The position numbers were made by a program, and so were the translations under genes. Positions 1,617 through 19,003 of a DNA stretch of 64,000 nt are shown one piece after another. This stretch comes from Candidatus Binatia bacterium (GTDB lineage Bacteria > Desulfobacterota > Binatia > UBA9968 > JAJDTQ01), in the NCBI GenBank assembly GCA_951813575.1, contig OX638375.1:1625042-1689041 (forward strand), in the 5' to 3' direction. The notes below the pieces were generated by a model that did no database searches, was not told the DNA's origin, and was given only the letters and a program-made list of their open reading frames with translations. Within the stretch, counting starts at the first letter, position 1. Every line of letters starts with the position of its first letter.

Positions 1617-1641
1617 TTGACCGGGTACCACCGGTCCATCC

Positions 1642-3177: not shown

Positions 3178-3256
3178 GCCGGCAAGGTGAGGTGGTCCTG
3201 GAAAATCGGACAGGTTGCTAAGGTGTATTCCACCGACTGAAGGAGGAGGGATACGC

Positions 3257-4458: not shown

Positions 4459-4582
4459 TCGAACGTCTGGAATACACCTTAACTCAGCCGCCCACCTGTC
4501 CTACAAACCAGGACCACCTCAGCCCGCGACACGCCCAAGCCAAGGCGAAACTGGACTTGCCCGGGATTGGTGGACAGGTTGG

Positions 4583-4885
4583 TTAAGCTGCCCGTGCCAT
4601 CCGCTCGAAGCCTGCTGGTGTCTGGTAGCCGAGGGTCGAGTGGCGACGTTGCCGATTGTAGAAGACCTCGATGAACTCGAAGATCGCGGCCCTTGCCTCG
4701 GCTGGACTCTGGTAGTCGGCGTGGTGGATGAGCTCGGTCTTCAGCGTTGCAAAGAAGCTCTCCACGACGGCGTTGTCCCAGCAGTTGGCGCGTCGGCTCA
4801 TGGAGCATTCGATGCCGTGGGCATCGAGCAGGCGCCGGTAGTCGGCCGAAGCGTATTGGGCGGTTTCAAGGGGTCGTCGCAACAC
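4583..4885 (-). pseudogene. C-terminal ~100 codons of a transposase from a different IS3-family element. An IR-like end (TTGGTGGACAGGTTGGTTAA) follows at ~4545-4580.
   Basis: The fragment reads [18 protein letters not shown]...[19 protein letters not shown]. The same fragment recurs at 15490-15693 on the plus strand. Confidence 0.75.
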
Positions 4886-5303
4886 GTCCTCGCTGGTGTA
4901 AGAGTAGCAGTTCGTTCAAGGCTTCGGATGGAGTTCTCCACCCGAGAGTCTTCCGCGGTCGGCGGTTGAGTGTGGCCGCGACAGCAGCAATGTCGTTAGC
5001 GCTGTGCCGATTGAGGTCAGTACCTTTGGGGAAGTACTGGCGCAGCAGACCATTGGTGTTCTCGTTGGTGCCGCGCTGCCACGGACTGTGGGGGTCACAG
5101 AAGAATACTTGCAACCCTGTGTCGATACCCAAACTTCCTGATGGTATCCGGTGTGAGCCAGGCGGCGGCTTCGCCTGGACTTGGTGCGATCGCAGCGTGG
5201 GCTGTCCTGCTCGATGCTCCCGGACCTCCTGGAGCCCCTTCAGAACATCCGAAGCGATATTGCGGTGAGCCATTCTTGATACCCTCCACAAGAGGCCGCT
5301 CAA
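4866..5303 (-). pseudogene. IS30-family transposase, C-terminal fragment
   Basis: The fragment reads [31 protein letters not shown]...[17 protein letters not shown]. There is no N-terminal HTH domain. Confidence 0.7.
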
Positions 5304-5310
5304 CGATGCT

Positions 5311-5770
5311 CACGTGGCACCGCCTCGCCGGACGACATGGGAGGCCTTGTGGTCTTGGGCTTCTTGGCCTTTGGCGACTCATAGAAGAGCTTCAGACTCT
5401 CCATCTTGCGCCGAAATTCCTCGGTGATCTGGCGGGCGACGGCGGGGTCCTGCAGCGCCCGCGGGGTGATCAGAATCACCAGCTCGGTACGGCGGCTGGA
5501 GTCCGCGGTGGTCTTGAACAGGTGACCGAGCAGGGGGATGTCGGAGAAACCCGGGACGCCGGACTGGGACTAGTTCTTGTTCTCCCGGATCAGGCCGCCG
5601 AGGACGATGGTCTCTCCGCTTTGGACGGCGACGCTGCTGTTGATCTTGCGCTGCTGGATCGTGGGCGTCAGGCTCCCGGCAGAACCTGGTGCCACGTCGC
5701 TTACTTCCTGCTTGATCTCCATGACCACGAGTCCGCCGGCGCTTACACGGGGCCTGACCGTGAGCAGCAC
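5311..5770 (-). pseudogene. Secretin (GspD/PilQ family) C-terminal fragment, copy 1. It is interrupted by an in-frame stop after ...GGLIRENKN.
   Basis: ORF 5570..5770 plus the continuation in the same frame (SGVPGFSDIPLLG-LFKTT...ELVILITPR). It is paralogous to 6804..7217. Confidence 0.6.
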
Positions 5771-5926
5771 GCCGGTGTCGCGGAACTCGATATTGTCGAC
5801 AGTGCTTGAGTCCCATTGCCGGCGCCAGCAGCCCTGTCACGCCGCCATTAAAGGTTGCCTAGAATGCCGTTGTCGATTAACAATGGTCCAAAGAAAGAGT
5901 ACGGGTCAGTACAAGGAGGTACCGGT

Positions 5927-6157
5927 GTGACAAACTATCGGGACCGCATCACTATCGAGCCGGGAAAGCGCGGCGGCAAGCCCTGTGTCCGCTTCATGCG
6001 GATCACGGTCTATGACGTGCTGGATTGGCTAGCCTCGGGCATGAGTGAAGCAGAGATTCTGAAGGACCACCCGGAATTGACCCAAGAGGACATCCGGGCC
6101 TGCCTGGCCTTTGCCGCCAATCGGGAACACCAATTATCTATGATCGCACCCGCTTGA
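5927..6157 (+). CDS. DUF433 domain protein (antitoxin-like partner)
   Basis: GTG start with an AAGGAGG Shine-Dalgarno sequence. The protein reads ITIEPGKRGGKPCVRFMRITVYDVLDWLASGMSEAEIL. Its stop overlaps the next gene's start. Confidence 0.75.
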   Translation: MTNYRDRITIEPGKRGGKPCVRFMRITVYDVLDWLASGMSEAEILKDHPELTQEDIRACLAFAANREHQLSMIAPA

Positions 6158-6486
6158 AGCTGCTCCTAGATCAGAACCTGTCTTTCCGGCTGCTGGAGGA
6201 GCTGGAACCCATCTATCCGGGCTCGACGCAAGTCAAGCTCATTAACCTCGATCAGACGGACGATCTTGGCGTCTGGCGCTTCGCCAGGGACAACGATTTT
6301 ACCATCGTTACCAAGGACTCGGATTTCCACGAGTTCAGCCTGGTCTATGGCAGTCCGCCGAAGGTGATCTGGCTCAAATGCGGCAACAAGCCCAGATCGT
6401 ATGTGCTGGGTCTACTGCTCGACAATCAGGATGCGGTCACGGCCTTCTTCAAGGACGACCAAAGCAGCTGCTTGGAAATCTATTAA
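6154..6486 (+). CDS. DUF5615 (PIN-like, Mut7-C-type) protein, toxin-like partner of DUF433
   Basis: The N-terminus MKLLLDQNLSFRLLEEL and the acidic residues are typical of DUF5615. It is translationally coupled to the DUF433 gene. Confidence 0.7.
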   Translation: MKLLLDQNLSFRLLEELEPIYPGSTQVKLINLDQTDDLGVWRFARDNDFTIVTKDSDFHEFSLVYGSPPKVIWLKCGNKPRSYVLGLLLDNQDAVTAFFKDDQSSCLEIY

Positions 6487-6572
6487 CGCTTACCGGTCCC
6501 TGTGCCGGATCGGGCGGCGAGGCGGCACGGGCAACTTTCTGTTGCTTGCTGAAGATTAGGTCACTTCACGTG

Positions 6573-6690
6573 GGCATAGGAAAGCTCCACTTGGTGGCGG
6601 GACCCCACGGGTACTGAGGTGGTCCCACTTTGGTGGACAGTGTGGCGGTGGCGTTAAGTAAGGGGATGTGGTCCCGGAAAATCGTGTCGT
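6573..6690 (+). other. 14-codon Rhs remnant (GIGKLHLVAGPHGY) joined at ~6615 to an IS-terminal-IR-like sequence (TGAGGTGGTCCC...GGACAG...TTAAG)
   Basis: The peptide matches the Rhs copy at 15200-15250. The first 11 nt of the adjoining sequence equal the IS3 terminal IR. Confidence 0.45.
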
Positions 6691-6803
6691 CTTAACCTTC
6701 TTTCCGTCGTACTGAGGAGAGGAAGGAGGATGTCGAGCCCGAGGCTGCAGCCCAAGGCAAGACGTCTTGAGGTGGAGGGAAAGACGATCTACGTGCCGAC
6801 CGC

Positions 6804-7217
6804 TCAACGTCCCTTAGACGGCGCAGCCTCGGAGGGCGTTTTAAAGGGTTTCGTGGCCTTGGCCTTCCCGGCCTTCGACGACCCATAGAAGGGTTTCAGA
6901 CTTCCCATCTTGCGCCGGAATTCCTCTGTGATGTGACAGGCGACGGCAGGGTCTTGTACGGCGCGGGGCGTGATCAGGACTACCAGTTCGGTACGGCGGG
7001 TGGAATCCGCGGTGGTCTTGAACAGGCGACCGAGCAGGGGGACGTCGGAAAGAGCGGACACGCCGGACTGGGACCGGTTCTTGTTCTCCCGGATCAGGCC
7101 TCCGAGAACGATGGTGTCGCCGCTCTGTGCTGCGACGCTGCGGTTGATCCTTCGCTGCTGGATGGTCGGCGTCAGGCTTCCGGCCGAGCCCGGCGCCACG
7201 TCGCTCACCTCCTGCAT
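6804..7217 (-). pseudogene. Secretin (GspD/PilQ family) C-terminal fragment, copy 2. Upstream of ~7217 the reading frame changes.
   Basis: The fragment reads LTPTIQQRRINRSVAAQSGDTIVLGGLIRENKN...SDVPLLGRLFKTT...ELVVLITPRAV. There is no N-terminal secretin domain. Confidence 0.65.
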
Positions 7218-7359
7218 GATCTCCTCTCCATGACGACGAGCCCGCCGGCGCTGACCGGGGCCTGACCGTGAGGAGCACGCCGGTGTGTGCGTGCTCGTTG
7301 AGAATTAGTCACTTCACCGAGCTCTCTGCCCTGCCTGTCCGGCGCAGCGATCCGGGAGT

Positions 7360-8875
7360 TTGGCGGTCCACTGCGTGGCAGGCTCCCACGGGTATTTGCG
7401 CATGCACGGCTACGACCACGTGGGGAGGCCAAGGAGCGAGACCGCGACCATATCCGGGGAGACCTTCCGGACAAGCCGCAGCTACGATAGCGCCGGCCGC
7501 GTGGCCACGGTGAGCTACCCCAAGAAGGGGTTTGGGGTGGGTTACGAGTATACCGCGAGCGGGTATTCGAGTAATATCTACAGTGTGGAGTCCACGGGGA
7601 CGGTGTACTGGACGGCGGAGGAGGTGAACGCCGAGGGGCAGATCACCGAGGCGATGCTGGGGAACGGGGTGAGCACCACCCGGAGCTGCGACCCGGAGAC
7701 CGGACTGGTGGAGAGCATCCAATCAGGGAAGGACGGCAACACGGAGGTACAGGACCTGGGGTATGTGTTCGACAGTCTGGGGAACCTGAGCACCCGGGAG
7801 GATTCCATCCAGGGGGTGTACGAGAGTTTTGACTATGACCTCTTGAACCGTCTTACGGGCGGCGCGGTGTACGATGCACTGGACGACACCGAGCGGGAGG
7901 CCAAGACCTACAGTTACGACGCCGTCGGCAACATCGTGAACAAGTCGGACGTGGGGGCTGAGGACTACGAGTACGAGTCCGGGAACGAGGCGGGGTCGGG
8001 GGATGCGGGTCCTCATGCGGTGGTGAGTGCCGGGGGAAACACCTACGAGTACGACGACAACGGGAACATGACCTCCGGGGCGGGGAAGGCCATGACCTGG
8101 ACGAGCTTCAACAAACCCCAGGTCATAAGCGACTCCACTACCACCAGCGCATTCATCCACGGTCCCGAAAGAGCCCGGATACAGCAGACCCGGGTGCAGG
8201 GGGCGGCCACCACCACCATCAAGTACGTGGGCACGATGTTCGAGCAGGTGGAGAAGACGGGTGCGGCCACCCAGTACGTGCACTACGTGTTTGCGGGGGA
8301 GAGGCGGGTGGCGGTGTACACCACCGACGATGGAGCCACGCCCACGGAGACGACGCGGTACCTGCACCAGGACCACCTGGGGTCGGTGGACACCATCACG
8401 GACGAGACCGGGGCGGTGGTGGAGCGGCTGTCGTACGATGCGTGGGGCAAGCGGAGGACGGCCACGGGGGACGATGCCTGGACCGACTCGCTCATAGCCA
8501 TCACCCCGGGGAACACCCCCAGAGGGTTTACCGGCCACGAGCACCTGGACGACTTCGAGCTGGTGCACATGAACGGGAGGGTGTACGACCCGGTGCTGGG
8601 GAGGTTTATGAGTCCGGATCCATTCGTGCAGTACCCGGAGAGTACTCAGGGGTTTAACCGGTATACCTATACCTCCAACAACCCCCTGTCCTTTACCGAT
8701 CCCAGCGGGTACTTCCTTTCAGAGCCGGATTGGGACGCAGACTACGAAATCGACGACGACGAGGAGAACGGGGGGCCTACGGCTGCGACGGCTGCGGCTA
8801 TACTGGCAACGATGAGGATGAACTGTACGGTGACGATCCGTGGGACGACACGCCGGTACGGCCCGGGGACACTAG
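7360..8875 (+). pseudogene. Rhs/YD-repeat protein, C-terminal core fragment (copy 1). It is 5'-truncated and carries a 1-nt deletion near 8776. Its toxin domain is replaced from ~8876.
   Basis: It has YD repeats (YEYTASGY, SYDAVGNIVN, TYEYDDNGNM) and the core-end motif RVYDPVLGRFMSPDPF...NRYTYTSNNPLSFTDPSGY. ORF 8730..8939 continues the copy-2 toxin N-terminus in a shifted frame. Confidence 0.8.
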
Positions 8876-9031
8876 AGCCTTGGCCAGATCGCGTTCCGCG
8901 ACCAGGCCCAGCGAGATCAGGAACGGACCCAGCCGTTGACCGCTTTCAGCTTGAAGCCGCAGTGCACGGTCCAGCTCCGACCGTTCCAGGCAGCGCTTCT
9001 CAACCAGCAATTCGCCGACGGCGTCGCTCAT
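8873..9031 (-). pseudogene. First 53 codons of a type II secretion / type IV pilus ATPase (GspE/PilB N-terminal domain). It is truncated at its junction with the Rhs fragment.
   Basis: The fragment MSDAVGELLVEKRCLERSELDRALRLQAESGQRLGPFLISLGLVAERDLAKAL matches the T2SSE_N domain. The remainder of ORF 8798..9031 is antisense Rhs sequence. Confidence 0.6.
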
Positions 9032-9242
9032 GGTTCGAGAGTTCCCGTGACGACGAGATTATCACGTTACCCTACGGGTCAACAGCGGTTACGACCAACT
9101 CCGAATCCACCTGCCATCGCGATCGTTCCTAGTGCCGAGCCTCAACGGCCGATCACGGCCGCTGCCTAGGCAATCCGCACCGGCATTCCGTTTCCCGATA
9201 CCGGCGCGCTGCTCACCGTCAGTTCCGGCAGTTCGTTCCCTT

Positions 9243-9965
9243 TCAGTCTTCGATCCTCCAGCCTCCAATTAGCCGATCCTGTTGCGTCTTGATCTTCACA
9301 AAATTATCCGGACGACAAACTACACCTACTACCGTCGTCTCCACCAAAATTCCGTCATAAACGCTACGAATGTTACACAACGCTTTCCGATTTAGAGTGA
9401 CAGGCCCACTCTTCACCAGTCCGCCTTCTTCCATCTCCACATAGAAGTCTGCGTTAGAAATGCCCAACACAGTGGCTCGTCTCGGATCGAAACTAAAGTA
9501 GTAATGTCGCTTCTCACCAATGAATGACTCTTCATAGCGATAAAATCCCGTTTGTTTCCCAATTCTTACCGACCTATCTAAAATGTGTTCTGATGCCCCC
9601 ACAATTGTTCGTCGATCGTACAATTTATCATAAAACAACATCAATAGAACCGACACGCCGCCGTCAACCCCGAAATCGGCACCAGGTATCGACAAGAACG
9701 TTGAAGGGGCATCATCGAAACCTTTCAGGTCTTTAAACAAATAATGAAAAATGGAGCGTGTGTTTTTTGTATATTCGTGCGGTATAGAGTACGCATGCCG
9801 GTGTCCTTTGATAGTAAGTGCCGACGCCCGGCTCGGCAACGCGACTACACATAAACACATTATGATCGTGAACAGGAACACGATGATCGTCGATTGCGAT
9901 GAAGTATATTGTGTCATAATGCAACCGTTAGTTGGACACCGGGTCACACTGCGAACAGACCACAA
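9243..9965 (-). CDS. Hypothetical protein encoded on a low-GC island. A hydrophobic N-terminal segment suggests it is exported.
   Basis: It is a 240-codon ORF whose local GC content is clearly below its surroundings. No family was recognised. It abuts the IS copy B end. Confidence 0.5.
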   Translation of the reverse strand: MWSVRSVTRCPTNGCIMTQYTSSQSTIIVFLFTIIMCLCVVALPSRASALTIKGHRHAYSIPHEYTKNTRSIFHYLFKDLKGFDDAPSTFLSIPGADFGVDGGVSVLLMLFYDKLYDRRTIVGASEHILDRSVRIGKQTGFYRYEESFIGEKRHYYFSFDPRRATVLGISNADFYVEMEEGGLVKSGPVTLNRKALCNIRSVYDGILVETTVVGVVCRPDNFVKIKTQQDRLIGGWRIED

Positions 9966-10076
9966 AAGCCGGCAGATACTGACCTAAGTAAGCACTTGTC
10001 GGCAAACTCAGAGTGAGGTGGTCCTGGTTTGTAGGACAGGGAGGCGGCTGAGTTAAGGTGTATTCCAGACGTTCGA

Positions 10077-11003
10077 TCATGCCGCCAAGGTCCCGTTTAT
10101 CACGTCTTCGTGTTCCGATGGAACTGGCAGAGGGGCGGGCGGGGTGTGAGGTCCGGCCTGCCTCTGGAGTCCTCGTTCGTAGGCCTCCTGTGGGGTGGAG
10201 CCGGCGAGGGCGGAATGAGGCCTTTGGGTGTTGTAGAAGGCCACCCACCGGGCGATGACCCGCAGGGCCGCGAAGCCTTCCGAGAGCTCGTGCAGGTAGA
10301 CAGCCTCGTACTTCATCGAGCGCCACAGGCGCTCGATGAAGATGTTGTCCATGCACCGGCCCCTTCCGTCCATGGAGATGGCAATGCCGGCGTCCTTGAG
10401 CACGGAGGTGAACTCCAGGCTGGTGAACTGGCTGCCCTGGTCGGTGTTGAAGATCTCGGGAGGGCCGTAGCGTTCCAGAGCCTCTGAGAGGGCCTCTGTA
10501 CAGAAGCGGGCATCGAGGGTGTTCGACAGCCGCCAGGAGAGCACCCGGCGGGTGGCCCAGTCCATGACCGCCACCAGGTACAGGAAGCCCTTCCGGACCG
10601 GGATGTAGGTTATATCTGCGGTCCACACGTGATTGGGCCGTTCGATGGCGACGCCCTTGAGCATATAGGGGTAAACCCGCTGCTCGGGGTGCGGTCGGGT
10701 GGTCCGCGGCGCCTGGTAGATGGCCTGGAGCCCCATCAGGCGCATCAGACGCCGCACCCGGTGACGACCCACTCGGACTCGCTCCCGCCACAGATGGCGG
10801 ACCATCTGGCGGCTGCCGTAGAAGGGGTACTCCAGGAACAGCTTGTCGATCCGGCGCATCAACGCCAGATTCTCCGCGCTCTCGCCCTTGGGCCGGTGGT
10901 ACACAGAGGATCGACTCACTCGAAGCAGATGGCATTGACGGCTCAAGCTGAGCTTGGGATGGCCGGGCTCGATCATCGCCCGGCGCTTCTCCCGGCTCAC
11001 CAC
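10077..11003 (-). CDS. IS3-family transposase OrfB, copy B
   Basis: It is 308 aa and differs from the copy A OrfB by a few substitutions. Confidence 0.85.
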   Translation of the reverse strand: MVSREKRRAMIEPGHPKLSLSRQCHLLRVSRSSVYHRPKGESAENLALMRRIDKLFLEYPFYGSRQMVRHLWRERVRVGRHRVRRLMRLMGLQAIYQAPRTTRPHPEQRVYPYMLKGVAIERPNHVWTADITYIPVRKGFLYLVAVMDWATRRVLSWRLSNTLDARFCTEALSEALERYGPPEIFNTDQGSQFTSLEFTSVLKDAGIAISMDGRGRCMDNIFIERLWRSMKYEAVYLHELSEGFAALRVIARWVAFYNTQRPHSALAGSTPQEAYERGLQRQAGPHTPPAPLPVPSEHEDVINGTLAA

Positions 11004-11278
11004 TTGAGCCCTTTGGCCAAAAAATCCCGCTCCACCGTCAACTCCCCGATCTTCGCGTGCAGGTCCCGAACCTCCCCCTCGTGGTCCCCACGTGCCCGCT
11101 CCGCACCCTTGGAGAACAACTCCTTCATCCCCTCCACCGCTCGCTGCTTCCAGGTGCTCACCTGGTTCGGATGGACCTTGTGCCGGGCCGCGATCTCCTG
11201 GACCGTCTTGTCCCCACGCAGCGCCTCCAGCGCCACCTTCGCCTTGAAGTCTCCGCTGAACCTTCGTCGTGTGCTCAT
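10997..11278 (-). CDS. IS3-family transposase OrfA, copy B
   Basis: Identical in sequence to the copy A OrfA. Confidence 0.85.
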   Translation of the reverse strand: MSTRRRFSGDFKAKVALEALRGDKTVQEIAARHKVHPNQVSTWKQRAVEGMKELFSKGAERARGDHEGEVRDLHAKIGELTVERDFLAKGLKW

Positions 11279-11313
11279 GCGTATCCCTCCTCCTTCAGTC
11301 GGTGGAATACACC

Positions 11314-12270
11314 TTAGCAACCTGTCCGTTTTTCCGGGACCACCTCAAGGGTCCTGTTTAACACGTCCTGCTGTTCCGGTTGAGCCGGCAGAGAGGCAGG
11401 TGAGCTGCAGCGCTGTGCCGGCCTCTGCGTCAGCATTCCCTTTTCGTAGACCTCGGCCGGGGTGGAGCCCCCCAAGGCGGAGTGGGGGCGCGCCCGGTCA
11501 TAGAAGGCGAACCACCGAGAGATCAGCCGCTGGGCCTGGAAGCCGTCAGAGATCTCGTGCAGGTAGACGGCCTCATACTTGAGGGAGCGCCACAGGCGCT
11601 CGATGAAGATGTTGTCCATGCAGCGGCCCCTGCCGTCCATGGAGATGGCGACGCCGGCGTCGTTGAGCACGGAGGTGAACTCCAGGCTGGTGAACTGGCT
11701 GCCCTGGTCTGAGTTGAAGATGTCGGGAGGGCCGTAGCGTTCCAGAGCCTCGGTGAGGGCCTCGACACAGAAGCGGGCATCGAGGGTGTTCGACAGTCTC
11801 CAGGAGAGCACCCGGCGGGTGGCCCAGTCCATGACCGCCACCAGGTACAGAAAGCCCTTCTGAACGGGGATGTACGTCAGGTCCGCGCACCACACGTGAT
11901 TGGGCCTCTCGATGGCCAATCCCTTGAGCAGACAGGGGTAAACCCGGTGCTGGGGATGCCGTGTGGTGGTCCGCGGCGCCTGGTAGATGGCCTGTAGCCC
12001 CATCAAGCGCATCAGACGCCGCACCCGGTGACGCCCCACAAAGACGCCTTCCCGCCACAGATGGCGGGCCATCTGGCGGCTGCCGTAGAAGGGGTACTCC
12101 AGGAACAGCTTGTCGATCCGGCGCATCAACGCCAGATTCTCCGCGCTCTCGCCCTTGGGCCTGTGGTACACAGAGGATCGGCTCACTCGAAGCAGATGGC
12201 ATTGACGGCTCAAGCTGAGCTTGGGATGGCCGGGCTGGGTCATCGCCCGGCGCTTGTCCCGGCTTACCAC
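11314..12270 (-). CDS. IS3-family transposase OrfB of copy C. Its C-terminus is altered by the junction with copy B.
   Basis: This is the lower part of ORF 11314..12585, which has DDE motifs. The upstream extension of that ORF is -1-frame read-through of OrfA. Confidence 0.7.
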   Translation of the reverse strand: MVSRDKRRAMTQPGHPKLSLSRQCHLLRVSRSSVYHRPKGESAENLALMRRIDKLFLEYPFYGSRQMARHLWREGVFVGRHRVRRLMRLMGLQAIYQAPRTTTRHPQHRVYPCLLKGLAIERPNHVWCADLTYIPVQKGFLYLVAVMDWATRRVLSWRLSNTLDARFCVEALTEALERYGPPDIFNSDQGSQFTSLEFTSVLNDAGVAISMDGRGRCMDNIFIERLWRSLKYEAVYLHEISDGFQAQRLISRWFAFYDRARPHSALGGSTPAEVYEKGMLTQRPAQRCSSPASLPAQPEQQDVLNRTLEVVPEKRTGC

Positions 12271-12612
12271 TTGAGCCCTTTGGCCAAAAAATCCCGCTCC
12301 ACCGTCAGCTCCCCGATCTTCGCGTGCAGGTCCCGAATCTCCCCCTCGTGGTCCCCTCGTGCCCGCTCCACCCCCTTGGAGAACACCTCCTTCATCCCCT
12401 CCACCGCCCGCTGCTTCCACGTGCTCACCTGGTTCGGGTGGATCTTGTGCCGCGTGGCGATCTCCTGGATCGTCTTGTCCCCTCGCAGTGCCTCCAGCGC
12501 CACCTTCGCCTTGAAGTCTCCGCTGAACCGTCGTCGTGTGCTCATTGCGTATCCCTCCTCCAGTCGGTGGAATACACCTTAGCAACCTGTCCGATTTTCC
12601 AGGACCACCTCA
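11348..12612 (-). mobile_element. IS3-family insertion sequence, copy C. It is a diverged relative (~85-90% protein identity). Its 3' terminal ~70 bp and that IR are missing because it abuts copy B directly.
   Basis: OrfA is at 12264..12545. The OrfB reading frame runs through into the copy B terminal IR (ending ...LEVVPEKRTGC). The 5'-end terminal IR is at ~12612. Confidence 0.8.
12264..12545 (-). CDS. IS3-family transposase OrfA of copy C
   Basis: The 93-aa product reads MSTRRRFSGDFKAKVALEALRGDKTIQEIATRHKIHPNQ... Confidence 0.8.
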   Translation of the reverse strand: MSTRRRFSGDFKAKVALEALRGDKTIQEIATRHKIHPNQVSTWKQRAVEGMKEVFSKGVERARGDHEGEIRDLHAKIGELTVERDFLAKGLKW

Positions 12613-12650
12613 GCTGTAGGCACACCACACATCCCATGGACCACAAAAAT

Positions 12651-13061
12651 TCAAAATAGTCTAAAAAGACTAAAACGGATTTCTTGATTCTTTATCTCAG
12701 ACTGATAAAACCATATGTATCCCGCTAATATGTTTAGCAGACAAAAAGTTACGAGTCCTTTGATAGCCTCTCCTCGATAACCTAACTTCCATAAGTAACA
12801 CACATAACCAATTGCATAAGACGTCATAGATATAACACAGATAAAGATAAGGCCAACACAAATATGAGAGACGGCCATAAGAATTGGATAGTCTTGCTCT
12901 GACCAATCTTGCTCTAACCAGTCTTGGTCTAACCAACCTTGTATCATGGAAAAGACGATGGCTAAGAAAAACACGGCATAAAACGCAATCAAAAAAAATG
13001 TCGAGTGATAGCAGACTCTAATCAACCTCTTGAAAACCGGTGGCAAAATATACTTTGTCAT
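12651..13061 (-). CDS. Small low-GC membrane protein immediately downstream of the Rhs toxin domain; putative cognate immunity protein
   Basis: It has four predicted transmembrane helices and an internal DW-rich tandem repeat (GWLDQDWLEQDWSEQDY). GC content is well below the genome's. The position matches Rhs toxin-immunity gene order. Confidence 0.5.
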   Translation of the reverse strand: MTKYILPPVFKRLIRVCYHSTFFLIAFYAVFFLAIVFSMIQGWLDQDWLEQDWSEQDYPILMAVSHICVGLIFICVISMTSYAIGYVCYLWKLGYRGEAIKGLVTFCLLNILAGYIWFYQSEIKNQEIRFSLFRLF

Positions 13062-13157
13062 GTGTCACCTTCACTTCTCCGGTACTATTCTACGCACATA
13101 TGAGATGGTTCTGCTTTCTTGGACACGCGAGCGGCAGACTTCACCTTTCATCGGAAA

Positions 13158-15488
13158 CTACTTGCCAGTAAAGTAGTCCCTAATTGGTTTAAGATCATAC
13201 TCGATTCCAAATGAATAGGGTGCTATAGTCCCGCTAATGCCGATGGACAAGTCCCAACTGGGGGCCTCCCAACCAAAAATGTTCATGTTCTTAACTCCGT
13301 CCCTGTGGTTGAAATCAGCATCCCACCCATAAAGACGGCCACCGAAGTTATAGTAGCTAAACTGGAGATCAGCAGTCGATTTACCCCAAATAGCTGTTCC
13401 TCTGTAATCGCGGTTAAGCCCACCAGAAGCGACTACGAACCCGCCACCAATTTTGAAAGGGCCAAATTTAAGTTCTTTGATGTGATACCCCCAACCAGCG
13501 CCTATTTCGACACTGTGCCCCTTTTTGACAGCATCCCATAAACCCTTAACTTGCTCCCATGCCCCTCCCTCGATACCAAGTATCTCGGCATAATCCTGAA
13601 CCCTCCTCATGTCTCCCGCTAGTAGAAGGTCGTTCATTTCGGCTCTGATAGTCTCCGTGGTGGGGAGCCTATGCTCTTTCTCCCAACTGTCGTAGTCTGG
13701 CACTATGGTCACTCCCCCGCCCGAACCGGAGGCGCTTGATACTTTTTGTCCCGTGCCGGTGTTAGTGATCCTAGTGTCCCCGGGCCGTACCGGCGTGTCG
13801 TCCCACGGATCGTAGCCGTACAGTTCATCCTCATCGTTGCCAGTATAGCCGCAGCCGTCGCAGCCGTAGGACCCCCCGTTCTCCTCGTCGTCGTCGACTT
13901 CGTAGTCTGCGTCCCAATCCGGCTCTGAAAGGAAGTACCCGCTGGGATCGGTAAAGGACAGGGGGTTGTTGGAGGTATAGGTATACCGGTTAAACCCCTG
14001 AGTACTCTCCGGATACTGCACGAATGGATCCGGACTCAGGAACCTCCCCAGCACCGGGTCGTACACCCTCCCGTTCATGTGCACCAGCTCGAAGTCGTCC
14101 AGATGCTCGTGGTCGGTAAACCCTCTGGGGGTGTTCCCCGGGGTGATGGCTATGACCGAGTCGGTCCAGGCATCGGTCCCCGTGGCCGTCCTCCGCTTGC
14201 CGAAGGCATCGTACGACAGCCGCTCCACCACCGCCCCGGTCTCGTCCGTGATCGTGTCCACCGACCCCAGGTGGTCCTGGTGCAGGTACCGCGTCGTCTC
14301 CGCGGGCGCGGCGGCATCGTCGGTGGTGTACACCGCTATTCGCCTCTCCCCCGCAAACACGTAGTGCACGTACTCGGTGGCCACACCCGTCTTCTCCACC
14401 TGCTCGAACGCCAACCCCACGTACTTGATGGTGGTGGTGGCCGCCCCCTGCACCCGGGTCTGCTATATCCGGGCTCTTTCGGGACCGTGGATGAATGCGC
14501 TGGTGGTAGCGGAGTCGCTTATGACCTGGGGCTTGTTGAAACTCGTCCAGGTCATGGTCCGTCCCGCCCCGGAGGTCATGTTCCCGTTGTCGTCGTACTC
14601 GTACGTGTTCCCACCCGCGCTCACCACCGCATGAGGACCTGCATCCCCTGACCCCGCTTCGTTCCCGGTCCCGTACTCGTAGTCGTCATCCCCCACGTCC
14701 GACTTGTTCACGATGTTGCCCACGGCGTCGTAGCTGTAGGTCTTCTCCTCCCGCTCGGTGTCGTCCAGTGCATCGTACACCGCGCCGCCCGTAAGACGGT
14801 TCAAGAGGTCATAGTCAAAACTCTCGTACACCCCCTGGATGGAATCCTCCCGGGTGTTCAGGTTCCCCAGACTGTCGAACACATACCCCAGGTCCTGTAC
14901 CTCGGTGTTGCCGTCCTTGCCTGACTGTATGCTCTCCACCAGTCCGGTCTCCGGGTCGTAGCTCCGGGTGGTGCCCACTCCGTTCCCCAGCATCGCCTGG
15001 GTGATCTGTCCCTCGGCGTTCACCTCCTCCGCCGTCCAGTACACCGTCCCCGGGGACTCCACACTGTAGATATTACTCGAATACCCGCTCGCGGTATACT
15101 CGTAACCCACCCCAAACCCCTTCTTGGGGTAGCTCACCGTGGCCACGCGGCCGGCGCGGTCAAAACTCCGGCTGGTCCGGAAGGTCTCGCCCTTGATGGT
15201 CTCGGTCTCGCTCTTGGGCCTCCCTACGTGGTCGTAGCCATGCATGCGCAGGTACCCGTGGGGTCCCGCCACCCAGTGGAGTTTTCCTATGCCCGTGACC
15301 GCCGTGTCATAGCTCCAGGTGGTGGTCCCTTCCCCCTCGGTCCGGCTTACCATCCGACCCAGCACATCGTACTCCATGGTCGCCGTCTGACCCTTGGCGT
15401 CGGTCTGGGAGGTGATCTCTCCCAGGGAGTTGTACGCGTAGCTCCATTCTCCCATGTCGGGGTCGCTCATCCCTACCTTGCGGCCCAG
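13158..15488 (-). pseudogene. Rhs/YD-repeat protein (copy 2). Its core C-terminal region and a complete C-terminal toxin domain of unrecognised family are present. It is 5'-truncated at ~15488 by an IS fragment and has an in-frame stop at 14463..14465.
   Basis: ORFs 13158..14453 and 14463..15548 are contiguous in one frame (RARI*QTRVQ, where copy 1 has Q). The core ends at PLSFTDPSGY. A ~230-aa Gly/Trp-rich tail follows. Confidence 0.8.
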
Positions 15489-15489
15489 G

Positions 15490-15693
15490 ACGTCCTGGGA
15501 CAACGCCGTCGTGGAGAGCTTCTTTGCTACGCTGAAGACCGAGCTCATCCACCACGCCGACTACCCTAGTCCAGCCGAGGCAAGGGCCGCGATTTTCGAG
15601 TTCATCGAGGTGTTCTACAATCGGCAACGTCGCCACTCGACCCTCTGCTACCAGACACCAGCAGGCTTTGAGCGGATGGCACGGGCAGCTTAA
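15490..15693 (+). pseudogene. Second copy of the IS3-type transposase C-terminal fragment (the same one as 4583..4885), followed by the same IR-like end
   Basis: The fragment reads [24 protein letters not shown]...[45 protein letters not shown] follows the stop. Confidence 0.7.
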
Positions 15694-15742
15694 CCAACCT
15701 GTCCACCAACCCCGGGTAAGGCCAGCCGCAGGAAATCGCAGT

Positions 15743-16542
15743 CTGAGCACACTGCGAAACCACATCGTGCATCTCACCCAGCGGTTTGGGCTCGACCGCG
15801 CCGTGGACATAACACCGGAACGCGTGAGCCAGTATCAGGTGTCCAGACTTGAGGAAGGGGCGGCCCGCGCGACCGTGAACCGCGAAGTCGCAACCCTCAA
15901 CCGCATGATGTCGCTGGCCGTGAACAGGAAGGTGCTTCTCCGTAAGTCGCACTTCGGACTGCTGGATGGGGAGCGGACGCGGGAAGGCTTTCTCTATCCT
16001 GCGGACTTCGCGGCCGTTCTTGGCCATCTGCCCTTGGCTTCAGAGGCCAGTGGAGTTCCTTTACCTGAGCGGGTGGCGTGTCGGCGAGATGCGCTCCCTG
16101 CGTTGGGCCGACGTCAACATGGACGAGCGGGTCGCCGTCCTGAAGATCGAAAACTCGAAGACGAAGCGCTCACGTCCGCTGACCCTCGAGGGTCGCCTCT
16201 GGGACATCGTCCGGGAGGCTCACGGGGCACGAAGACTCGATTGCCCGTTCGTCTTCCATTGGAACGGCCAGCCTATCGGTAACTTCCGCAAAAGGTGGAA
16301 CAGCGCCTGCCGGGCCGCGGGCATTGAGGGGGTGGTCGTTCACGATCTGTGCCGGAGCGCTACCCGTAATCTGCGGGAGGCGGGTGTTCAGGGTCGCGAT
16401 GGACTTCACCGGACATGTCACCAGGGCGATGTTCGACCGGTACAACATCACGGACGCAGAACAGATGAGGCAGGCCCAGATCCAGTTAGACGAGTATCTG
16501 AGGCAACAGATCGGCGAGCGGAAGGTCAGAGCCATCCGGTAG
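15743..16542 (+). pseudogene. Tyrosine recombinase (phage-type integrase). It is broken by two frameshifts (~16030 and ~16390) and is N-terminally truncated.
   Basis: The catalytic-domain motifs are spread over three frames, in ORFs 15668.., 15966.. and 16324..: LSGWRVGEMRSLRWADV, then HDLCRSATRNLREAGV, then RAMFDRYNI. Confidence 0.8.
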
Positions 16543-16622
16543 GCGACGCGGACAAAAGGCGGACAAAATATGGCCATTTCGGAGCAGAGAGAGACCTACG
16601 CGTTCGTAAGTTGTTGAAATTA

Positions 16623-16699
16623 TGGTGGTCGCAGCAGGACTCGAACCTGCGGCCTCTTGCATGTGAGGCAAGCGCTCTAGCCGACTGAGCTATGCGACC
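16623..16699 (-). tRNA. tRNA-Val (anticodon CAC), 77 nt including the encoded CCA
   Basis: It folds as a cloverleaf by hand: a GGUCGCA/UGCGACC acceptor stem, a GCUC/GAGC D stem, a CUUGC/GCAAG anticodon stem with the loop CUCACAU, and a GCAGG/CCUGC T stem with UUCGAGU. The position was anchored through ORF 16526..16750. Confidence 0.85.
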
Positions 16700-16771
16700 A
16701 CGCCAGGATAGACCTTGACGTTTACCACCTGGACGGGCGGGTTTCAACAACGCCGCGGCAAGCGGAACGGG

Positions 16772-17038
16772 TCACTCCCGTTCCTTCTGCCGCTGCTTGA
16801 TGCGCTGGTTGAGGGACTGCAGGATGCCGGCGTCGACGGCGGCGATGACGTCCACCGCGGCATCGAGGTGTTCCTCGGGAATGTCTGCTTTCCTTGCGTC
16901 CGCAAGGCGGCGGTCCACTCAGGGATCGCAGTTCCGGGTCATGGCCACGGCGAGGCCGAGAAAGATCTTCTCCCGTTCGCTGAGGCACTCGACCGCGTGG
17001 GCGTCCCGATAGAACTGACGGAAGTCTGCCTTGTTCAT
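16772..17038 (-). CDS. Carboxymuconolactone decarboxylase / AhpD-like family protein with an in-frame TGA at 16919..16921 in the C-x-x-C position; a candidate selenoprotein
   Basis: The translation is MNKADFRQFYRDAHAVECLSEREKIFLGLAVAMTRNCDP-U-VDRRLADARKADIPEEHLDAAVDVIAAVDAGILQSLNQRIKQRQKERE. Family-like sequence continues on both sides of the TGA. A hairpin (CCUUGC-GGAC-GCAAGG) starts 11 nt after the UGA. Confidence 0.55.
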
Positions 17039-17085
17039 GGACTCTCTCCTGTTGGCGCCCGGCGTTCCAGGCGGCATGCGGCACT

Positions 17086-17493
17086 TCAGCCCTTGGCCAT
17101 CTCCATGATGACGTCGTAGTGGGCGTCGCTCACCGGAACGAAGGAAAGCCGGCCCAGCCGGAACAGGTCGAAGCCTTCCAGCTTTGGGTTGAGCTTCATC
17201 TCGGCCAGCGACACCTCACGCTTCAGCGCCTTGCCGACCTTGATGTCGAACACCAGGAGCCTGGGATCGTCCTTCTCGGGATCGGCATAGGCGCCGGTGG
17301 TGGCGGTGCCGAGGCCGACGCAGATCCGCTCGCCGCCGGTGTGATAGATGATGCACCGGTCGCCCTTCTTCACGGTCTTGAGGTGCTTGAGAGCGAGATT
17401 GTTCTTGATACCGTCCCAGATCGTGCTCTTGTCCCGTTGCAGGTCCGCAAAGGAATAAACGCTGGGTTCGGTCTTGAGCAGCCAGTTCGCCAT
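17086..17493 (-). CDS. EVE (PUA-like) domain protein
   Basis: The N-terminus MANWLLKTEPSVYSFADL and C-terminus GRLSFVPVSDAHYDVI are typical of EVE proteins. Confidence 0.8.
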   Translation of the reverse strand: MANWLLKTEPSVYSFADLQRDKSTIWDGIKNNLALKHLKTVKKGDRCIIYHTGGERICVGLGTATTGAYADPEKDDPRLLVFDIKVGKALKREVSLAEMKLNPKLEGFDLFRLGRLSFVPVSDAHYDVIMEMAKG

Positions 17494-17633
17494 CGTAATC
17501 CTCCTCCTTGTTCGGCGTCGTCTTGGGATACTGCAATCCGGCACATGCGGCAACAGTGGAGAGGAGTCGGACGCCCAGCGAAATCTGTCTGAAACGGTCG
17601 CTCGGATCCCTGTAGCCCCTCCGCGCTGGTTTT

Positions 17634-17909
17634 TCAGCCTGCGACGAGGTTGATCTCCACCTTCATGCCGACAGCGTCCGCATAGCGTTCCAATGTCTTC
17701 AACGATGGTTTGTGGCCGCTTTCCAGGCGGGCGACGGTAGGCTGGCTCGTCCCCATCCGGATAGCAACCTCGCTCTGGCTCATTCCCGCCCTGACGCGTG
17801 CCTCAATGAGCTTCCGTGCCAATTCAAACTCGGGCTTGAGGGCCTCGAACTCCGCCCGGAACTCGGGGTCCTTGTTCCAATCATTCCGCAGATCGTCAAA
17901 TTCAATCAC
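17634..17909 (-). CDS. XRE-family helix-turn-helix transcriptional regulator (HigA-like antidote fold)
   Basis: The HTH reads MSQSEVAIRMGTSQPTVARLESG. No toxin partner was found upstream. Confidence 0.7.
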   Translation of the reverse strand: MIEFDDLRNDWNKDPEFRAEFEALKPEFELARKLIEARVRAGMSQSEVAIRMGTSQPTVARLESGHKPSLKTLERYADAVGMKVEINLVAG

Positions 17910-18115
17910 AATAAGATTTCCTGCTATCGATCATTTGTGATCGTACCCGAGTGAGTCAATCTCATCCCTGACCGTTTGGTTCAGGATTTCCACGCGCCAG
18001 ACCATCCCCCGAATATACCGATTTTGATATAAGGGGCAAGCGGCGTCGACCACAGATGATCGGAAAATCTCGTACCGCTCCCGCTTTCCCGATGGGTCTG
18101 TGGTACAACGATTTC

Positions 18116-19003
18116 ATGACGCTCGCACGCAAGAAGAAACCCACGGACCGCCCCCTCTTGGGCGCCCACATGTCCATCGCGGGCGGGGTTCACAATGCGC
18201 TTCACGCGGGCGACAGCGTGGGTTGCGAGGCCGTCCAGATCTTTACCAAATCCTCGCGGCAGTGGGCCGCAAAGCCCTTGAGCGAGGACGACGTCCGCAC
18301 CTTCAAGGACACCCAGAAGGCCAGCGGGATCCACACGGTGGTGGCCCACGACTCCTACCTGCTGAACCTCGGCGCGCCAGACCGGGAGCTGCGGCAGAAG
18401 TCCGTGGCCGCCTTCGTGGACGAGATGGAGCGCTGCGAGGCTCTGGACATTCCCTGCCTCATCGCCCATCCGGGAGCCCACACCGGGGCGGGCGAACGAG
18501 TGGGCCTGCGTACAATCGCCCGTTCCCTGGACGCCATCCACCGGCGCTGCGCGGGCTTCAAGGTGCGCGTCGCGCTGGAGATCACCGCCGGGCAGGGCAC
18601 CAACCTGGGCTACCGCTTCGAGCACATCCGCAACATCATCGACGGCGTGAAGGAGAGCGACCGGCTCAGGGTGTGCTTCGACACCCAACACGCGTTCGCC
18701 GCCGGCTACGACATCCGCACCCGGGAAGGCTACGAAAGGACGTTCACCGAGTTCGACGAGACCATCGGGGTCAGGCTCCTGGCGGCGTTCCACCTGAACG
18801 ATTCGAAAAAGGAGCTCGACTGCCGTGTGGACCGTCACGAGATCCTCGGCAAGGGACACATCGATCTCGAACCGTTCCGCCTGCTGGTGAACGACAAGCG
18901 TTTCTTCGGCCTCCCCATGTGCCTCGAAACCCCCAAGGGCAAGGATTTAAAGGAGGACCGGGAAACCATCGAGTTGTTGCGGTCTTTCCGGGGTGGAGCG
19001 TAG
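18116..19003 (+). CDS. nfo: Endonuclease IV (apurinic/apyrimidinic endonuclease Nfo)
   Basis: The sequence has LLGAHMSIAGG, the H-D-H metal ligands and HLNDSK. ORF 18056 upstream of Met21 is an extension. Confidence 0.85.
   Translation: MTLARKKKPTDRPLLGAHMSIAGGVHNALHAGDSVGCEAVQIFTKSSRQWAAKPLSEDDVRTFKDTQKASGIHTVVAHDSYLLNLGAPDRELRQKSVAAFVDEMERCEALDIPCLIAHPGAHTGAGERVGLRTIARSLDAIHRRCAGFKVRVALEITAGQGTNLGYRFEHIRNIIDGVKESDRLRVCFDTQHAFAAGYDIRTREGYERTFTEFDETIGVRLLAAFHLNDSKKELDCRVDRHEILGKGHIDLEPFRLLVNDKRFFGLPMCLETPKGKDLKEDRETIELLRSFRGGA

What the first reader, a model, noticed from the sequence alone, without database searches (positions are those of the whole stretch)
16772..17038. AhpD/CMD-family gene with an in-frame TGA at the C-x-x-C position and a hairpin 11 nt downstream; candidate selenoprotein
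The minus-strand frame encodes an AhpD/CMD-family protein (full translation given in the feature list). The conserved redox motif, normally C-x-x-C, reads C-D-P-TGA. Family-like sequence continues for 48 more codons to a TGA stop. A 6-bp-stem hairpin (CCUUGC-GGAC-GCAAGG) begins 11 nt after the UGA, and this is the spacing used by bacterial SECIS elements. The ORF track missed the gene because of the TGA. Selenocysteine-containing members of this family are known. The alternative is a Cys-to-stop pseudogene.
Basis: partly seen in the sequence, partly recalled or inferred. Interest (0 to 1): 0.7.

Follow-up and report, generated by a model that had tools for sequence, protein, structure and literature searches.

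The report
Selenocysteine-encoding small CMD/AhpD-like redox gene
This is a real gene for a small redox protein whose internal "stop" codon almost certainly encodes the rare amino acid selenocysteine; this kind of selenoprotein is already known, so the case is well supported but ordinary.

Summary
Minus strand 17038..16772 encodes an 88-codon CMD/AhpD-family protein (Pfam PF02627, above the curated cut-off). It has an in-frame TGA (16921-16919) in place of the second Cys of CxxC (C37-D-P-U40). A 6-bp/4-nt hairpin (16907-16892) starts 11 nt after the TGA.

The hairpin alone is weak evidence: about 8% of all UGA triplets in this GC-rich window have a comparable one. The comparative data decide the case:
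- 109 of 112 homologous gene copies in 101 loci carry TGA at this codon, and 3 carry TGC (Cys). Most named genomes are Candidatus Binatia or "Deltaproteobacteria" MAGs.
- dN/dS after the TGA (0.055) is as low as before it (0.064).
- Synonymous sites are almost frozen only across the hairpin codons (0-0.16 bits, against 1.4-2.2 elsewhere).
- The hairpin meets all four criteria of the published bacterial SECIS model.

The pseudogene, stop-restart and TGA-reassignment readings are rejected. The Sec machinery (selA, selB, selC, selD) could not be examined with the sequence held.

CxxU CMD-domain selenoproteins have been described since 2005. This is therefore a new member, and possibly an uncurated subfamily, of a known kind. 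In most relatives, though not in this window, the gene follows a His-rich SAM methyltransferase gene.

The parts
16772..17038 (-). Complete selenoprotein gene: 88 codons, CMD/AhpD-like, C37-D-P-U40 motif
   Evidence: Translation. Pfam PF02627 at 28.4 bits against a cut-off of 23. Homologues of 72-98% identity in the 20 genome loci.
17044..17050 (-). Shine-Dalgarno-like AGGAGAG; its GGAG core (17049-17046) lies 7 nt upstream of the ATG start (17038-17036)
   Evidence: Read directly from the sequence.
16928..16930 (-). Cys37 codon (TGC), the first residue of the CxxU motif
   Evidence: Invariant Cys in 84 unique genes.
16919..16921 (-). In-frame TGA, read as the Sec40 codon
   Evidence: TGA in 109 of 112 homologous copies and TGC in 3. 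The column aligns with the second Cys of CxxC in Cys homologues and PDB chains.
16908..16918 (-). 11-nt spacer GUGGACCGCCG between the UGA and the hairpin
   Evidence: Its third codon positions vary freely (V41, D42, R43).
16892..16907 (-). Putative SECIS core: 6-bp stem CCUUGC/GCAAGG with apical loop GGAC. The loop starts 17 nt after the UGA. Free energy -7.7 kcal/mol.
   Evidence: Codon entropy is 0-0.16 bits in codons 44-46, 48 and 49, against 1.4-2.2 bits elsewhere. 99.6% of cells are paired, with one compensatory U-A to C-G change.
16772..16774 (-). Terminal TGA stop of the same gene
   Evidence: It shows that TGA also works as a stop codon in this genome.
17086..17553 (-). Upstream EVE-domain gene, 47 nt from the selenoprotein start; a conserved neighbour and probably co-transcribed
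   Evidence: Pfam EVE, E = 2e-32. tblastn finds it upstream of the Sec gene in 33 loci.
16623..16699 (-). tRNA-Val(CAC), 72 nt downstream of the stop; a conserved neighbour in the window's clade
   Evidence: ARAGORN and Rfam. Same position in L001-L011.

Best explanation
The locus is a functional selenoprotein gene. The UGA at codon 40 is recoded to selenocysteine. The proposed mechanism is that the hairpin 11 nt downstream acts as a bacterial SECIS element: SelB-GTP carrying Sec-tRNA(Sec) would bind the GG-containing apical loop and deliver Sec to the ribosome when the UGA is in the A site. The product is an 88-residue CMD/AhpD-fold protein with a C37-x-x-U40 redox centre. It most likely acts as a thiol/selenol oxidoreductase (peroxide or disulfide reductase, or redox adaptor), with Sec at the position of the second Cys of CxxC.

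Shown here:
- the gene, its family and the aligned column;
- conservation of the TGA;
- purifying selection downstream of the TGA;
- synonymous-site constraint on the hairpin.

Inferred:
- SelB binding and actual Sec insertion;
- the redox activity and its partner. In about 70 related loci the gene directly follows a His-rich class-I SAM methyltransferase gene, and its best NCBIfam matches are the AhpD-like domains of methyltransferase-fused selenoproteins. A methyltransferase-coupled role, possibly with a metal or metalloid, is therefore possible. That methyltransferase is absent from this window.
For: 1. Family: Pfam CMD above the gathering score. The PDB profile search hits 3bey and 7y4r, and the TGA column falls on the second Cys of CDAC and CDGC.
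2. Sec/Cys pair: full-length homologues carry CDPC. Of 112 gene copies in 101 loci, 109 have TGA and 3 have TGC. All 20 genome loci, each from a different species-representative genome, have TGA.
3. Translation continues past the TGA: dN/dS is 0.055 for codons 41-82 and 0.045 when the hairpin is left out, against 0.064 for codons 2-39, at dS of about 1.2-1.4.
4. RNA constraint: in 84 unique genes the codons for R44, L45, A46, A48 and R49 have 0-0.16 bits of codon entropy. Other invariant R, L and A codons have 1.4-2.2 bits. The loop G at the A46 third position is invariant, while loop position 4 varies between C and U.
5. Structure: 99.6% of cells are paired. There is one U-A to C-G compensatory change (L100) and two U.G wobbles.
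6. All four bSECIS-model criteria quoted in PMC13188914 are met: 4-nt loop, 6-bp stem, GG at loop positions 1-2, 17 nt from the UGA to the loop, and -7.7 kcal/mol.
7. A third, more divergent clade in a different gene context (L101, C-Q-Y-TGA) keeps the same hairpin and spacing.
8. TGA is also a genuine stop here: this gene and the EVE gene both end in TGA.
9. CxxU CMD-domain selenoproteins are an established family (PMC1088965; PMC2398784; PMC13188914).
Against: - Sec machinery was not observed. There is no tRNA-Sec in the window or in L001-L020, nor in any held locus by ARAGORN. No other in-frame TGA candidate exists in the window. This is absence from about 0.6 Mb of held sequence, not from the genome.
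- The hairpin alone is not significant (z = -1.77; 8% of UGA triplets have an equivalent one).
- Covariation is minimal. One compensated pair was found, and 26 of 500 shuffles reach the observed value. The RNA argument therefore rests on synonymous-site conservation.
- The His at +4 of the AhpD proton relay (CxxCxxxH) is Arg44 here (PMC3141380). AhpD-type chemistry cannot be assumed.
- The AlphaFold model of a Cys homologue is of low confidence (pLDDT 72.9, pTM 0.44) and adds nothing.
- There are no experimental data.
Confidence: 0.9

Rival explanations
1. Cys-to-stop pseudogene: a TGC-to-TGA mutation inactivated a CMD gene, and the downstream part is no longer translated.
For: A single nucleotide separates TGC from TGA. 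Cys forms exist. Public gene callers end the ORF at the TGA.
Against: The TGA is kept in 109 of 112 copies across three clades and all 20 genome loci. dN/dS downstream is 0.055, as low as upstream. There are no frameshifts or extra stops in 101 of 111 extracted gene copies.
Confidence: 0.01
2. Split gene with stop-restart coupling: two peptides of 39 and 48 residues are made. The second starts at the GTG directly after the TGA (TGAGTG), and the two assemble non-covalently.
For: the ORF listing reports a 48-aa ORF that starts at the GTG immediately after the TGA.
Against: In 84 unique genes, codon 41 is GTG in 64 and GTA, GTC or GTT in 17. Three more have ACG or ACC. None of those alternatives is a start codon. 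Cys-form orthologues are single polypeptides. The split would cut the CxxC centre itself. This reading does not explain the frozen hairpin.
Confidence: 0.02
3. TGA is reassigned as a sense codon (Trp in code 4, Gly in code 25) or is read through without Sec by near-cognate Trp or Cys tRNA. The hairpin would then act only as a read-through stimulator.
For: Some public translations show W at this position (P0007, P0008, P0010 and others).
Against: Those W residues are gene-caller artefacts. P0007's DNA has TGA at the motif and at the true stop, both printed as W, so the protein runs on past its end. In the window, this gene and its EVE neighbour end in TGA, and the window's ORFs are consistent with code 11. 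The column is the redox Cys, and Cys is the only sense alternative seen in intact relatives. That pattern is the classical Sec/Cys signature.
Confidence: 0.04
4. The frozen 16-nt hairpin is conserved mainly for a DNA-level or other RNA role, such as a recombination or insertion site or a regulatory hairpin, rather than as a SECIS.
For: The stem sequence, not only its pairing, is nearly invariant, and covariation is weak. In several relatives, truncated second copies of the gene lie next to HicAB-like cassettes, and in two loci the homology ends at or just after the hairpin (L036, L071).
Against: The position, loop GG, spacing and energy all match the bSECIS model. The invariant loop G and the free loop position 4 are what SelB recognition predicts. 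The one variant that lost the TGA to GGA also has a broken stem (L110). Most loci show no insertion.
Confidence: 0.03

Closest known systems
CMD domain-containing / 'AhpD-like 2' selenoprotein family (Pfam PF02627, CxxU; Zhang et al. 2005, PMC1088965; Zhang & Gladyshev 2008, PMC2398784; listed in PMC13188914)
   Same: Same Pfam domain, same CxxU motif and a bacterial SECIS directly after the UGA. 'AhpD-like 2' was reported as more abundant in non-marine samples. Many of the related loci found here come from JGI and ENA environmental metagenomes whose habitats I did not check.
   Different: I could not compare sequences with the published examples (for instance MBW1767730.1). Whether this is the same subfamily is therefore untested. 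The lineage found here (Candidatus Binatia and relatives) did not turn up with selenocysteine terms in the searchable literature.
GSU3128 family (seleno)protein, the 'distant AhpD homolog' of Geobacter (NCBIfam NF041047, 84-position model)
   Same: A small, stand-alone AhpD-like protein of about 85 residues with CxxU.
   Different: Scores 18.7 bits against a cut-off of 110, so it is not a member.
[quoted passage not shown]
   Same: These are among the best NCBIfam matches, at 33.8 and 27.4 bits, and they align to the C-terminal AhpD-like CxxU domains. In about 70 related loci the gene lies directly downstream of a class-I SAM methyltransferase gene, an unfused counterpart of those fusions.
   Different: The scores are far below the cut-offs of 380 and 510. 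There is no methyltransferase domain in this protein and no such gene in this window. The neighbouring methyltransferase has a His-rich N-terminus and reaches the curated cut-off of none of the 25 best NCBIfam models listed.
Mycobacterium tuberculosis AhpD / PA0269 AhpD-like family (PMC3141380)
   Same: The two-helix CxxC motif. Sec occupies the position of the second Cys.
   Different: The invariant His at +4 of the proton relay is Arg44 here. The protein is half the size, and no AhpC gene lies next to it.
Methanothermobacter O27018 (PDB 3bey, 96 aa) and the CMD domain protein 7y4r
   Same: The closest solved relatives (E = 1.2e-8 and 9e-4). They are small single-domain CMD proteins with CDAC and CDGC at the aligned motif.
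   Different: They have Cys rather than Sec and keep the His at +4. The PDB entry titles give no function; I did not search for one.
Consensus bacterial SECIS model (bSECISearch; PMC13188914 Fig. 2)
   Same: All four criteria are met: 3-9 nt loop, 4-16 bp stem, G in the first two loop positions, 16-37 nt spacing, MFE at or below -7.5.
   Different: It only just passes, at -7.7 kcal/mol and 17 nt. No conserved lower stem was found.

Membership tests
Pfam CMD (PF02627) | Whole-protein score at or above the gathering cut-off (23 bits) | tested here: met
   28.4 bits, E = 1.7e-6, residues 7-70, with U replaced by C.
Bacterial selenoprotein (general criteria) | In-frame TGA conserved among orthologues | tested here: met
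   109 of 112 copies, and all 20 genome loci.
Bacterial selenoprotein (general criteria) | Cys-containing homologues with Cys aligned to the TGA | tested here: met
   CDPC in P0001-P0006. TGC in L031, L063 and L092. CDAC and CDGC in 3bey and 7y4r.
Bacterial selenoprotein (general criteria) | Coding constraint continues downstream of the TGA | tested here: met
   dN/dS 0.055 downstream against 0.064 upstream.
Bacterial selenoprotein (general criteria) | The genome encodes selA, selB, selC (tRNA-Sec) and selD | not testable with these tools
   Only 64 kb of the genome is held. No tRNA-Sec or SelD match in the window or loci.
Bacterial selenoprotein (general criteria) | Sec actually incorporated (75Se labelling or mass spectrometry) | not testable with these tools
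   Needs an experiment.
bSECIS consensus model (PMC13188914) | Apical loop of 3-9 nt and upper stem of 4-16 bp | tested here: met
   Loop GGAC (4 nt) and a 6-bp stem.
bSECIS consensus model (PMC13188914) | At least one G in the first two loop positions | tested here: met
   GG, invariant in 79 of 79 aligned sequences even though the first G is a synonymous site.
bSECIS consensus model (PMC13188914) | 16-37 nt between the UGA and the apical loop | tested here: met
   17 nt.
bSECIS consensus model (PMC13188914) | MFE at or below -7.5 kcal/mol | tested here: met
   -7.7 kcal/mol for the 16-nt hairpin, which only just passes.
AhpD-like family in the strict sense (PMC3141380) | Cys-X-X-Cys in the two-helix motif | tested here: met
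   C37-D-P-U40, with Sec in place of the second Cys.
AhpD-like family in the strict sense (PMC3141380) | Invariant His four residues after the second Cys (proton relay) | tested here: not met
   Arg44 aligns with that His in 3bey, 7y4r and 2ijc. R44 is found in 84 of 84 unique genes.
AhpD-like family in the strict sense (PMC3141380) | Relay Glu about 12 residues before the first Cys | tested here: inconclusive
   E21 and E23 lie 16 and 14 residues before C37, the same spacing as in 3bey. There is no reliable structure to judge the geometry.
NCBIfam NF041047, GSU3128 family (seleno)protein | Score at or above 110 bits | tested here: not met
   18.7 bits.
NCBIfam NF045649 MduS / NF041537 ArsM-AhpD | Score at or above 380 / 510 bits, with a fused methyltransferase domain | tested here: not met
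   33.8 and 27.4 bits, on the AhpD-like domain only. This protein has no methyltransferase domain.
NCBIfam TIGR04169, arsenosugar-associated peroxidase-like protein | Score at or above 120 bits | tested here: not met
   33.3 bits.

The most novel reading that the evidence does not exclude
The small CxxU protein may be the free-standing redox or ligand-handling partner of a His-rich SAM methyltransferase. That would make it an unfused version of the MduS and ArsM-AhpD selenoprotein fusions, acting in metal, metalloid or selenium methylation in Binatia and related soil and sediment lineages. The window's clade would have kept the selenoprotein after losing or moving the methyltransferase gene. 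The locus would also be the first explicit evidence that Candidatus Binatia decode selenocysteine. As a curiosity, the gene appears to be a recurrent insertion point for small HicAB-like cassettes, which leave truncated duplicate copies.
Probability: 0.25. Interest if true: 0.5.

Novelty: new member of a known kind. Interest (0 to 1): 0.3.

Why it matters
In practical terms, this subfamily passes no curated NCBIfam selenoprotein model. Public resources therefore mis-annotate it in several ways. It appears as two small hypothetical ORFs (P0021, P0022, P0041, P0088). It is also translated with W at the TGA, after which the protein runs past its real stop (P0007). A dedicated model would correct hundreds of records.

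Biologically, the locus extends the known CxxU CMD-type selenoproteins to Candidatus Binatia and related uncultured lineages. It also gives a clean example of a SECIS whose stem is frozen at synonymous sites. The recurrent link to a His-rich methyltransferase offers a testable lead on function. None of this overturns current understanding.

Tried and rejected
- Single-sequence folding and a chance baseline showed that the hairpin alone cannot carry the claim.
- Covariation counting found one compensatory pair only and is not decisive.
- Rfam found nothing except tRNA-Val; no bacterial SECIS family matched.
- The search for Sec machinery found nothing in the held sequence.
- A scan of the window for other in-frame TGA genes with coding signal on both sides returned only this gene.
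- Literature searches for Binatia or Binatota together with selenocysteine found nothing relevant.
- The Haft & Tolstoy 2025 paper on MduS is not held.
The model of the Cys homologue P0005 had pLDDT 72.9 and pTM 0.44, with one continuous helix running through the CxxC. I judged it too poor for a fold search.
- A look-up of U-containing sequences in the protein collection was rejected by the tool.
- The pseudogene, stop-restart and code-reassignment readings were considered and rejected, as set out under the rival explanations.

Full report
**Observation**

The minus strand of window 17038..16772 reads as one 88-codon frame with a single internal TGA:

MNKADFRQFYRDAHAVECLSEREKIFLGLAVAMTRNCDP*VDRRLADARKADIPEEHLDAAVDVIAAVDAGILQSLNQRIKQRQKERE*.

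- The ATG (17038-17036) is preceded by AGGAGAG (17050-17044).
- Cys37 is at 16930-16928.
- The internal TGA is at 16921-16919.
- After an 11-nt spacer (16918-16908) comes the hairpin CCUUGC-GGAC-GCAAGG (16907-16892).
- The gene ends with another TGA (16774-16772).
- The mechanical ORF list splits the gene into 52-aa and 48-aa pieces.
- With U written as C, the protein passes Pfam CMD PF02627 at 28.4 bits against a cut-off of 23.

**Is the hairpin more than chance?**

On its own, no. The 66-nt fold has z = -1.77, and 10 of 200 shuffles fold as well. In this 65% GC window, 129 of 1585 UGA triplets (8%) are followed by a hairpin that satisfies the same structural criteria. The case rests on comparison with relatives.

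**Comparative evidence**

*Protein search.* The search returned three kinds of hit:
- full-length relatives of about 86 aa with CDPC (P0001-P0006);
- relatives with W, R or G at the motif position;
- dozens of 48-53-aa "halves", which are what a gene caller produces when it stops at a TGA.

*Species-representative genomes.* The scan gave 20 loci. Most are Candidatus Binatia, the rest "Deltaproteobacteria", Syntrophobacteraceae or Thermodesulfobacteriota MAGs. All 20 have TGA at the same codon and an intact frame after it, except L020, which has a 1-nt loss in a G run.

*Metagenome contigs.* Eighty further loci were retrieved. Over 112 gene copies in 101 sequences, the codon is TGA 109 times and TGC 3 times.

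*A third clade.* A more divergent clade in an unrelated gene context (L101, C-Q-Y-TGA) has the same hairpin at the same spacing.

*Selection.* Pairwise Nei-Gojobori estimates on 84 unique genes give these dN/dS values, at dS of about 1.2-1.4:

| Region | dN/dS |
|---|---|
| Codons 2-39 (before the TGA) | 0.064 |
| Codons 41-82 (after the TGA) | 0.055 |
| Codons 50-82 (after the TGA, hairpin left out) | 0.045 |

The part after the TGA is translated and selected. This rules out a pseudogene.

**The RNA element**

The hairpin lies in the codons R44-L45-A46-D47-A48-R49, which are invariant at the amino-acid level. The test is therefore at synonymous sites. Codon entropy in the 84 unique genes:

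| Codons | Entropy (bits) |
|---|---|
| R, L and A codons of invariant residues elsewhere in the gene | 1.4-2.2 |
| R44, L45, A46, A48, R49 (stem and first loop position) | 0, 0.09, 0, 0.16, 0.16 |
| D47 (fourth loop position) | 0.53, varying between GAC and GAT |

- The immediately preceding codon, R43, uses all four CGN codons and AGG.
- The third position of A46 is the first loop nucleotide, and it is an invariant G.
- The stem pair formed by the third positions of L45 and A48 could covary freely. It is U-A in 76 sequences, U.G in 2 and C-G in 1 (L100). Overall 99.6% of cells pair.
- Covariation is therefore weak, with 26 of 500 shuffles reaching the observed value. The synonymous freeze is strong and local.

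The element meets all four criteria of the consensus bacterial SECIS model quoted in PMC13188914:
- loop of 3-9 nt (here 4) and stem of 4-16 bp (here 6);
- G in the first two loop positions (here GG);
- 16-37 nt from the UGA to the loop (here 17);
- MFE at or below -7.5 kcal/mol (here -7.7).

The lower stem predicted in the single-sequence fold is not conserved in relatives.

Natural variants fit this reading:
- Three TGC forms and one CGA form (Entotheonella, L105) keep the hairpin, which points to recent change.
- The one GGA form (L110) also has a broken stem, G to A, giving Ala to Thr.

**Rival explanations**

*Stop-restart at the GTG after the TGA.* This fails because codon 41 is GTA, GTC, GTT, ACG or ACC in about a fifth of the genes.

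*Reassignment of TGA.* This fails because this gene and its EVE neighbour both end in TGA. The W in public translations is an artefact: P0007's DNA has TGA both at the motif and at its true stop, both printed as W.

*A DNA-level role for the hairpin.* This cannot be fully excluded, but it is less economical than the SECIS reading.

**What the protein is**

- The closest solved relatives are small single-domain CMD proteins: 3bey (O27018, 96 aa, E = 1.2e-8) and 7y4r. The TGA column aligns with the second Cys of their CDAC and CDGC motifs.
- In AhpD proper, CxxC works with a Glu/His/water proton relay, and the His at +4 is described as invariant (PMC3141380). Here that position is Arg44 in all 84 unique genes.
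- The protein is therefore CMD/AhpD-like in fold and motif, but it is not an AhpD in the strict sense.
- The most likely activity is thiol/selenol redox chemistry through a C37-U40 selenenylsulfide. This is inferred, not shown.
- The AlphaFold model of a Cys homologue was of low confidence and was not used.

**Genomic context**

- *In the window.* The gene lies 47 nt downstream of an EVE-domain gene (17086-17553) and 72 nt upstream of tRNA-Val(CAC). Beyond the tRNA lie a tyrosine-integrase remnant, RHS-repeat genes and ORFs that look like IS3-family transposase genes by eye. This pattern suggests a genomic island at the tRNA.
- *Window clade.* The order EVE gene, Sec gene, tRNA-Val is conserved in L001-L011. 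L021-L027 share the EVE gene directly upstream.
- *Larger clade.* A His-rich class-I SAM methyltransferase gene of 340-361 aa sits directly upstream of the Sec gene in about 70 loci. Where enough upstream flank is held, the EVE gene lies further upstream.
- *Link to fused selenoproteins.* The best NCBIfam hits of the Sec protein include the AhpD-like CxxU domains of methyltransferase-fused selenoproteins (MduS at 33.8 bits, ArsM/AhpD at 27.4 bits). All are far below their cut-offs. This suggests a functional link with a methyltransferase.
- That methyltransferase is absent from this window and from the window's clade.

**Sec machinery**

The window and all held loci contain only tRNA-Val genes and no SelD-like sequence. 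No second in-frame TGA gene exists in the window. The searchable literature says nothing about Sec in Binatia. The argument for Sec is therefore indirect but strong. Conservation of an in-frame TGA at a redox Cys column across the Binatia genome loci, most of them assembled as a single chromosome record, with selection on the downstream codons and on the hairpin, has no other known explanation in bacteria.

**Comparison with what is known, and novelty**

CMD-domain selenoproteins with CxxU were reported in the Sargasso Sea selenoproteome in 2005 (PMC1088965). They appear as "AhpD-like 2, pfam02627, CxxU" in the GOS study (PMC2398784) and are listed in the 2026 review (PMC13188914).

This gene is a new member of that kind. 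It passes none of the curated NCBIfam selenoprotein models and is consistently mis-annotated in public data. It comes from a lineage for which I found no published mention of Sec use. It does not change any concept.

**Verdict**

- Observation: confirmed.
- Confidence that this is a Sec-encoding gene with a SECIS: about 0.9.
- Confidence in the specific redox function: lower, and inferred.
- Interest: 0.3.

Noticed in passing
L028 1768-2853; L075 1516-2538; about 70 loci in all: A class-I SAM methyltransferase (Pfam Methyltransf_11/25) sits directly upstream of the Sec gene in most relatives. Its N-terminus is strikingly His-rich (HDHGH repeats). It is absent from the window and from the window's clade. 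None of the 25 best NCBIfam hits listed reaches its curated cut-off.
   Followed up: partly
L075 3446-3828 and 3977-4120; also L057, L058, L073, L074, L079, L083, L090, L071, L036: About 850-900 nt downstream of the full gene lies a second copy that is N-terminally truncated or that breaks off after the hairpin. It still carries the TGA and the hairpin. In L075 the two copies are separated by ORFs that look HicA/HicB-like by eye. In L036 and L071 the homology ends at or just after the hairpin. This may mean that small cassettes repeatedly insert into this gene.
   Followed up: partly
L105 4121-4123 (Candidatus Entotheonella palauensis, FKIO01000456.1): The Sec codon is CGA (Arg) and the hairpin is intact, differing only by GAC to GAT in the loop. 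This may be a recent TGA-to-CGA change, perhaps in a host that lacks Sec decoding, or a sequence error.
   Followed up: partly
L110 656-690: A variant with GGA (Gly) in place of TGA. It also has Pro to Ser in the motif and a G-to-A change that breaks the stem (CCUUAC...GCAAGG). This looks like a decaying copy, and it fits the view that the hairpin is constrained only while the UGA is present.
   Followed up: partly
L109 262-630 (P0007); also P0008, P0010, P0012, P0013, P0016, P0018, P0019: Public protein records show W at the Sec position, and some run past the true TGA stop. For P0007 the DNA confirms that TGA was translated as Trp; the other records were not checked.
   Followed up: yes
L020 about 10140; L063 about 1445: A 1-nt loss in the G run after the hairpin (AAAGCGGGATG instead of AAAGCGGGGATG) shifts the frame of the C-terminal half. 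This is either a homopolymer assembly error or a true pseudogene.
   Followed up: no
window about 1600-16700: A mobile-looking region next to tRNA-Val. It holds a tyrosine-integrase remnant (15966-16688 +, Pfam Phage_integrase), an RHS-repeat gene (14463-15548, Pfam RHS_repeat) with further RHS-like ORFs (13158-14453, 7360-9132), and ORFs that look like IS3-family transposase genes by eye (10077-11320, 4583-4885, 15454-15693). GC3 is lower than in the core genes to the right of 17000.
   Followed up: partly
window 17634-17909 (-) and 17931-18053 (-): A 91-aa HTH_3 protein (Pfam) is preceded by a 40-aa ORF in the same frame. This could be a small toxin-antitoxin-like pair between the EVE gene and the AP-endonuclease-2-family gene (18056-19003).
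   Followed up: no
window 42618-44129 (+) and 44148-45659 (+): Two tandem 503-aa paralogues with nearly identical N-termini (M[PS]D[RH][33 protein letters not shown]). The N-terminus looks like a dinucleotide-binding motif by eye. This appears to be a tandem duplication.
   Followed up: no
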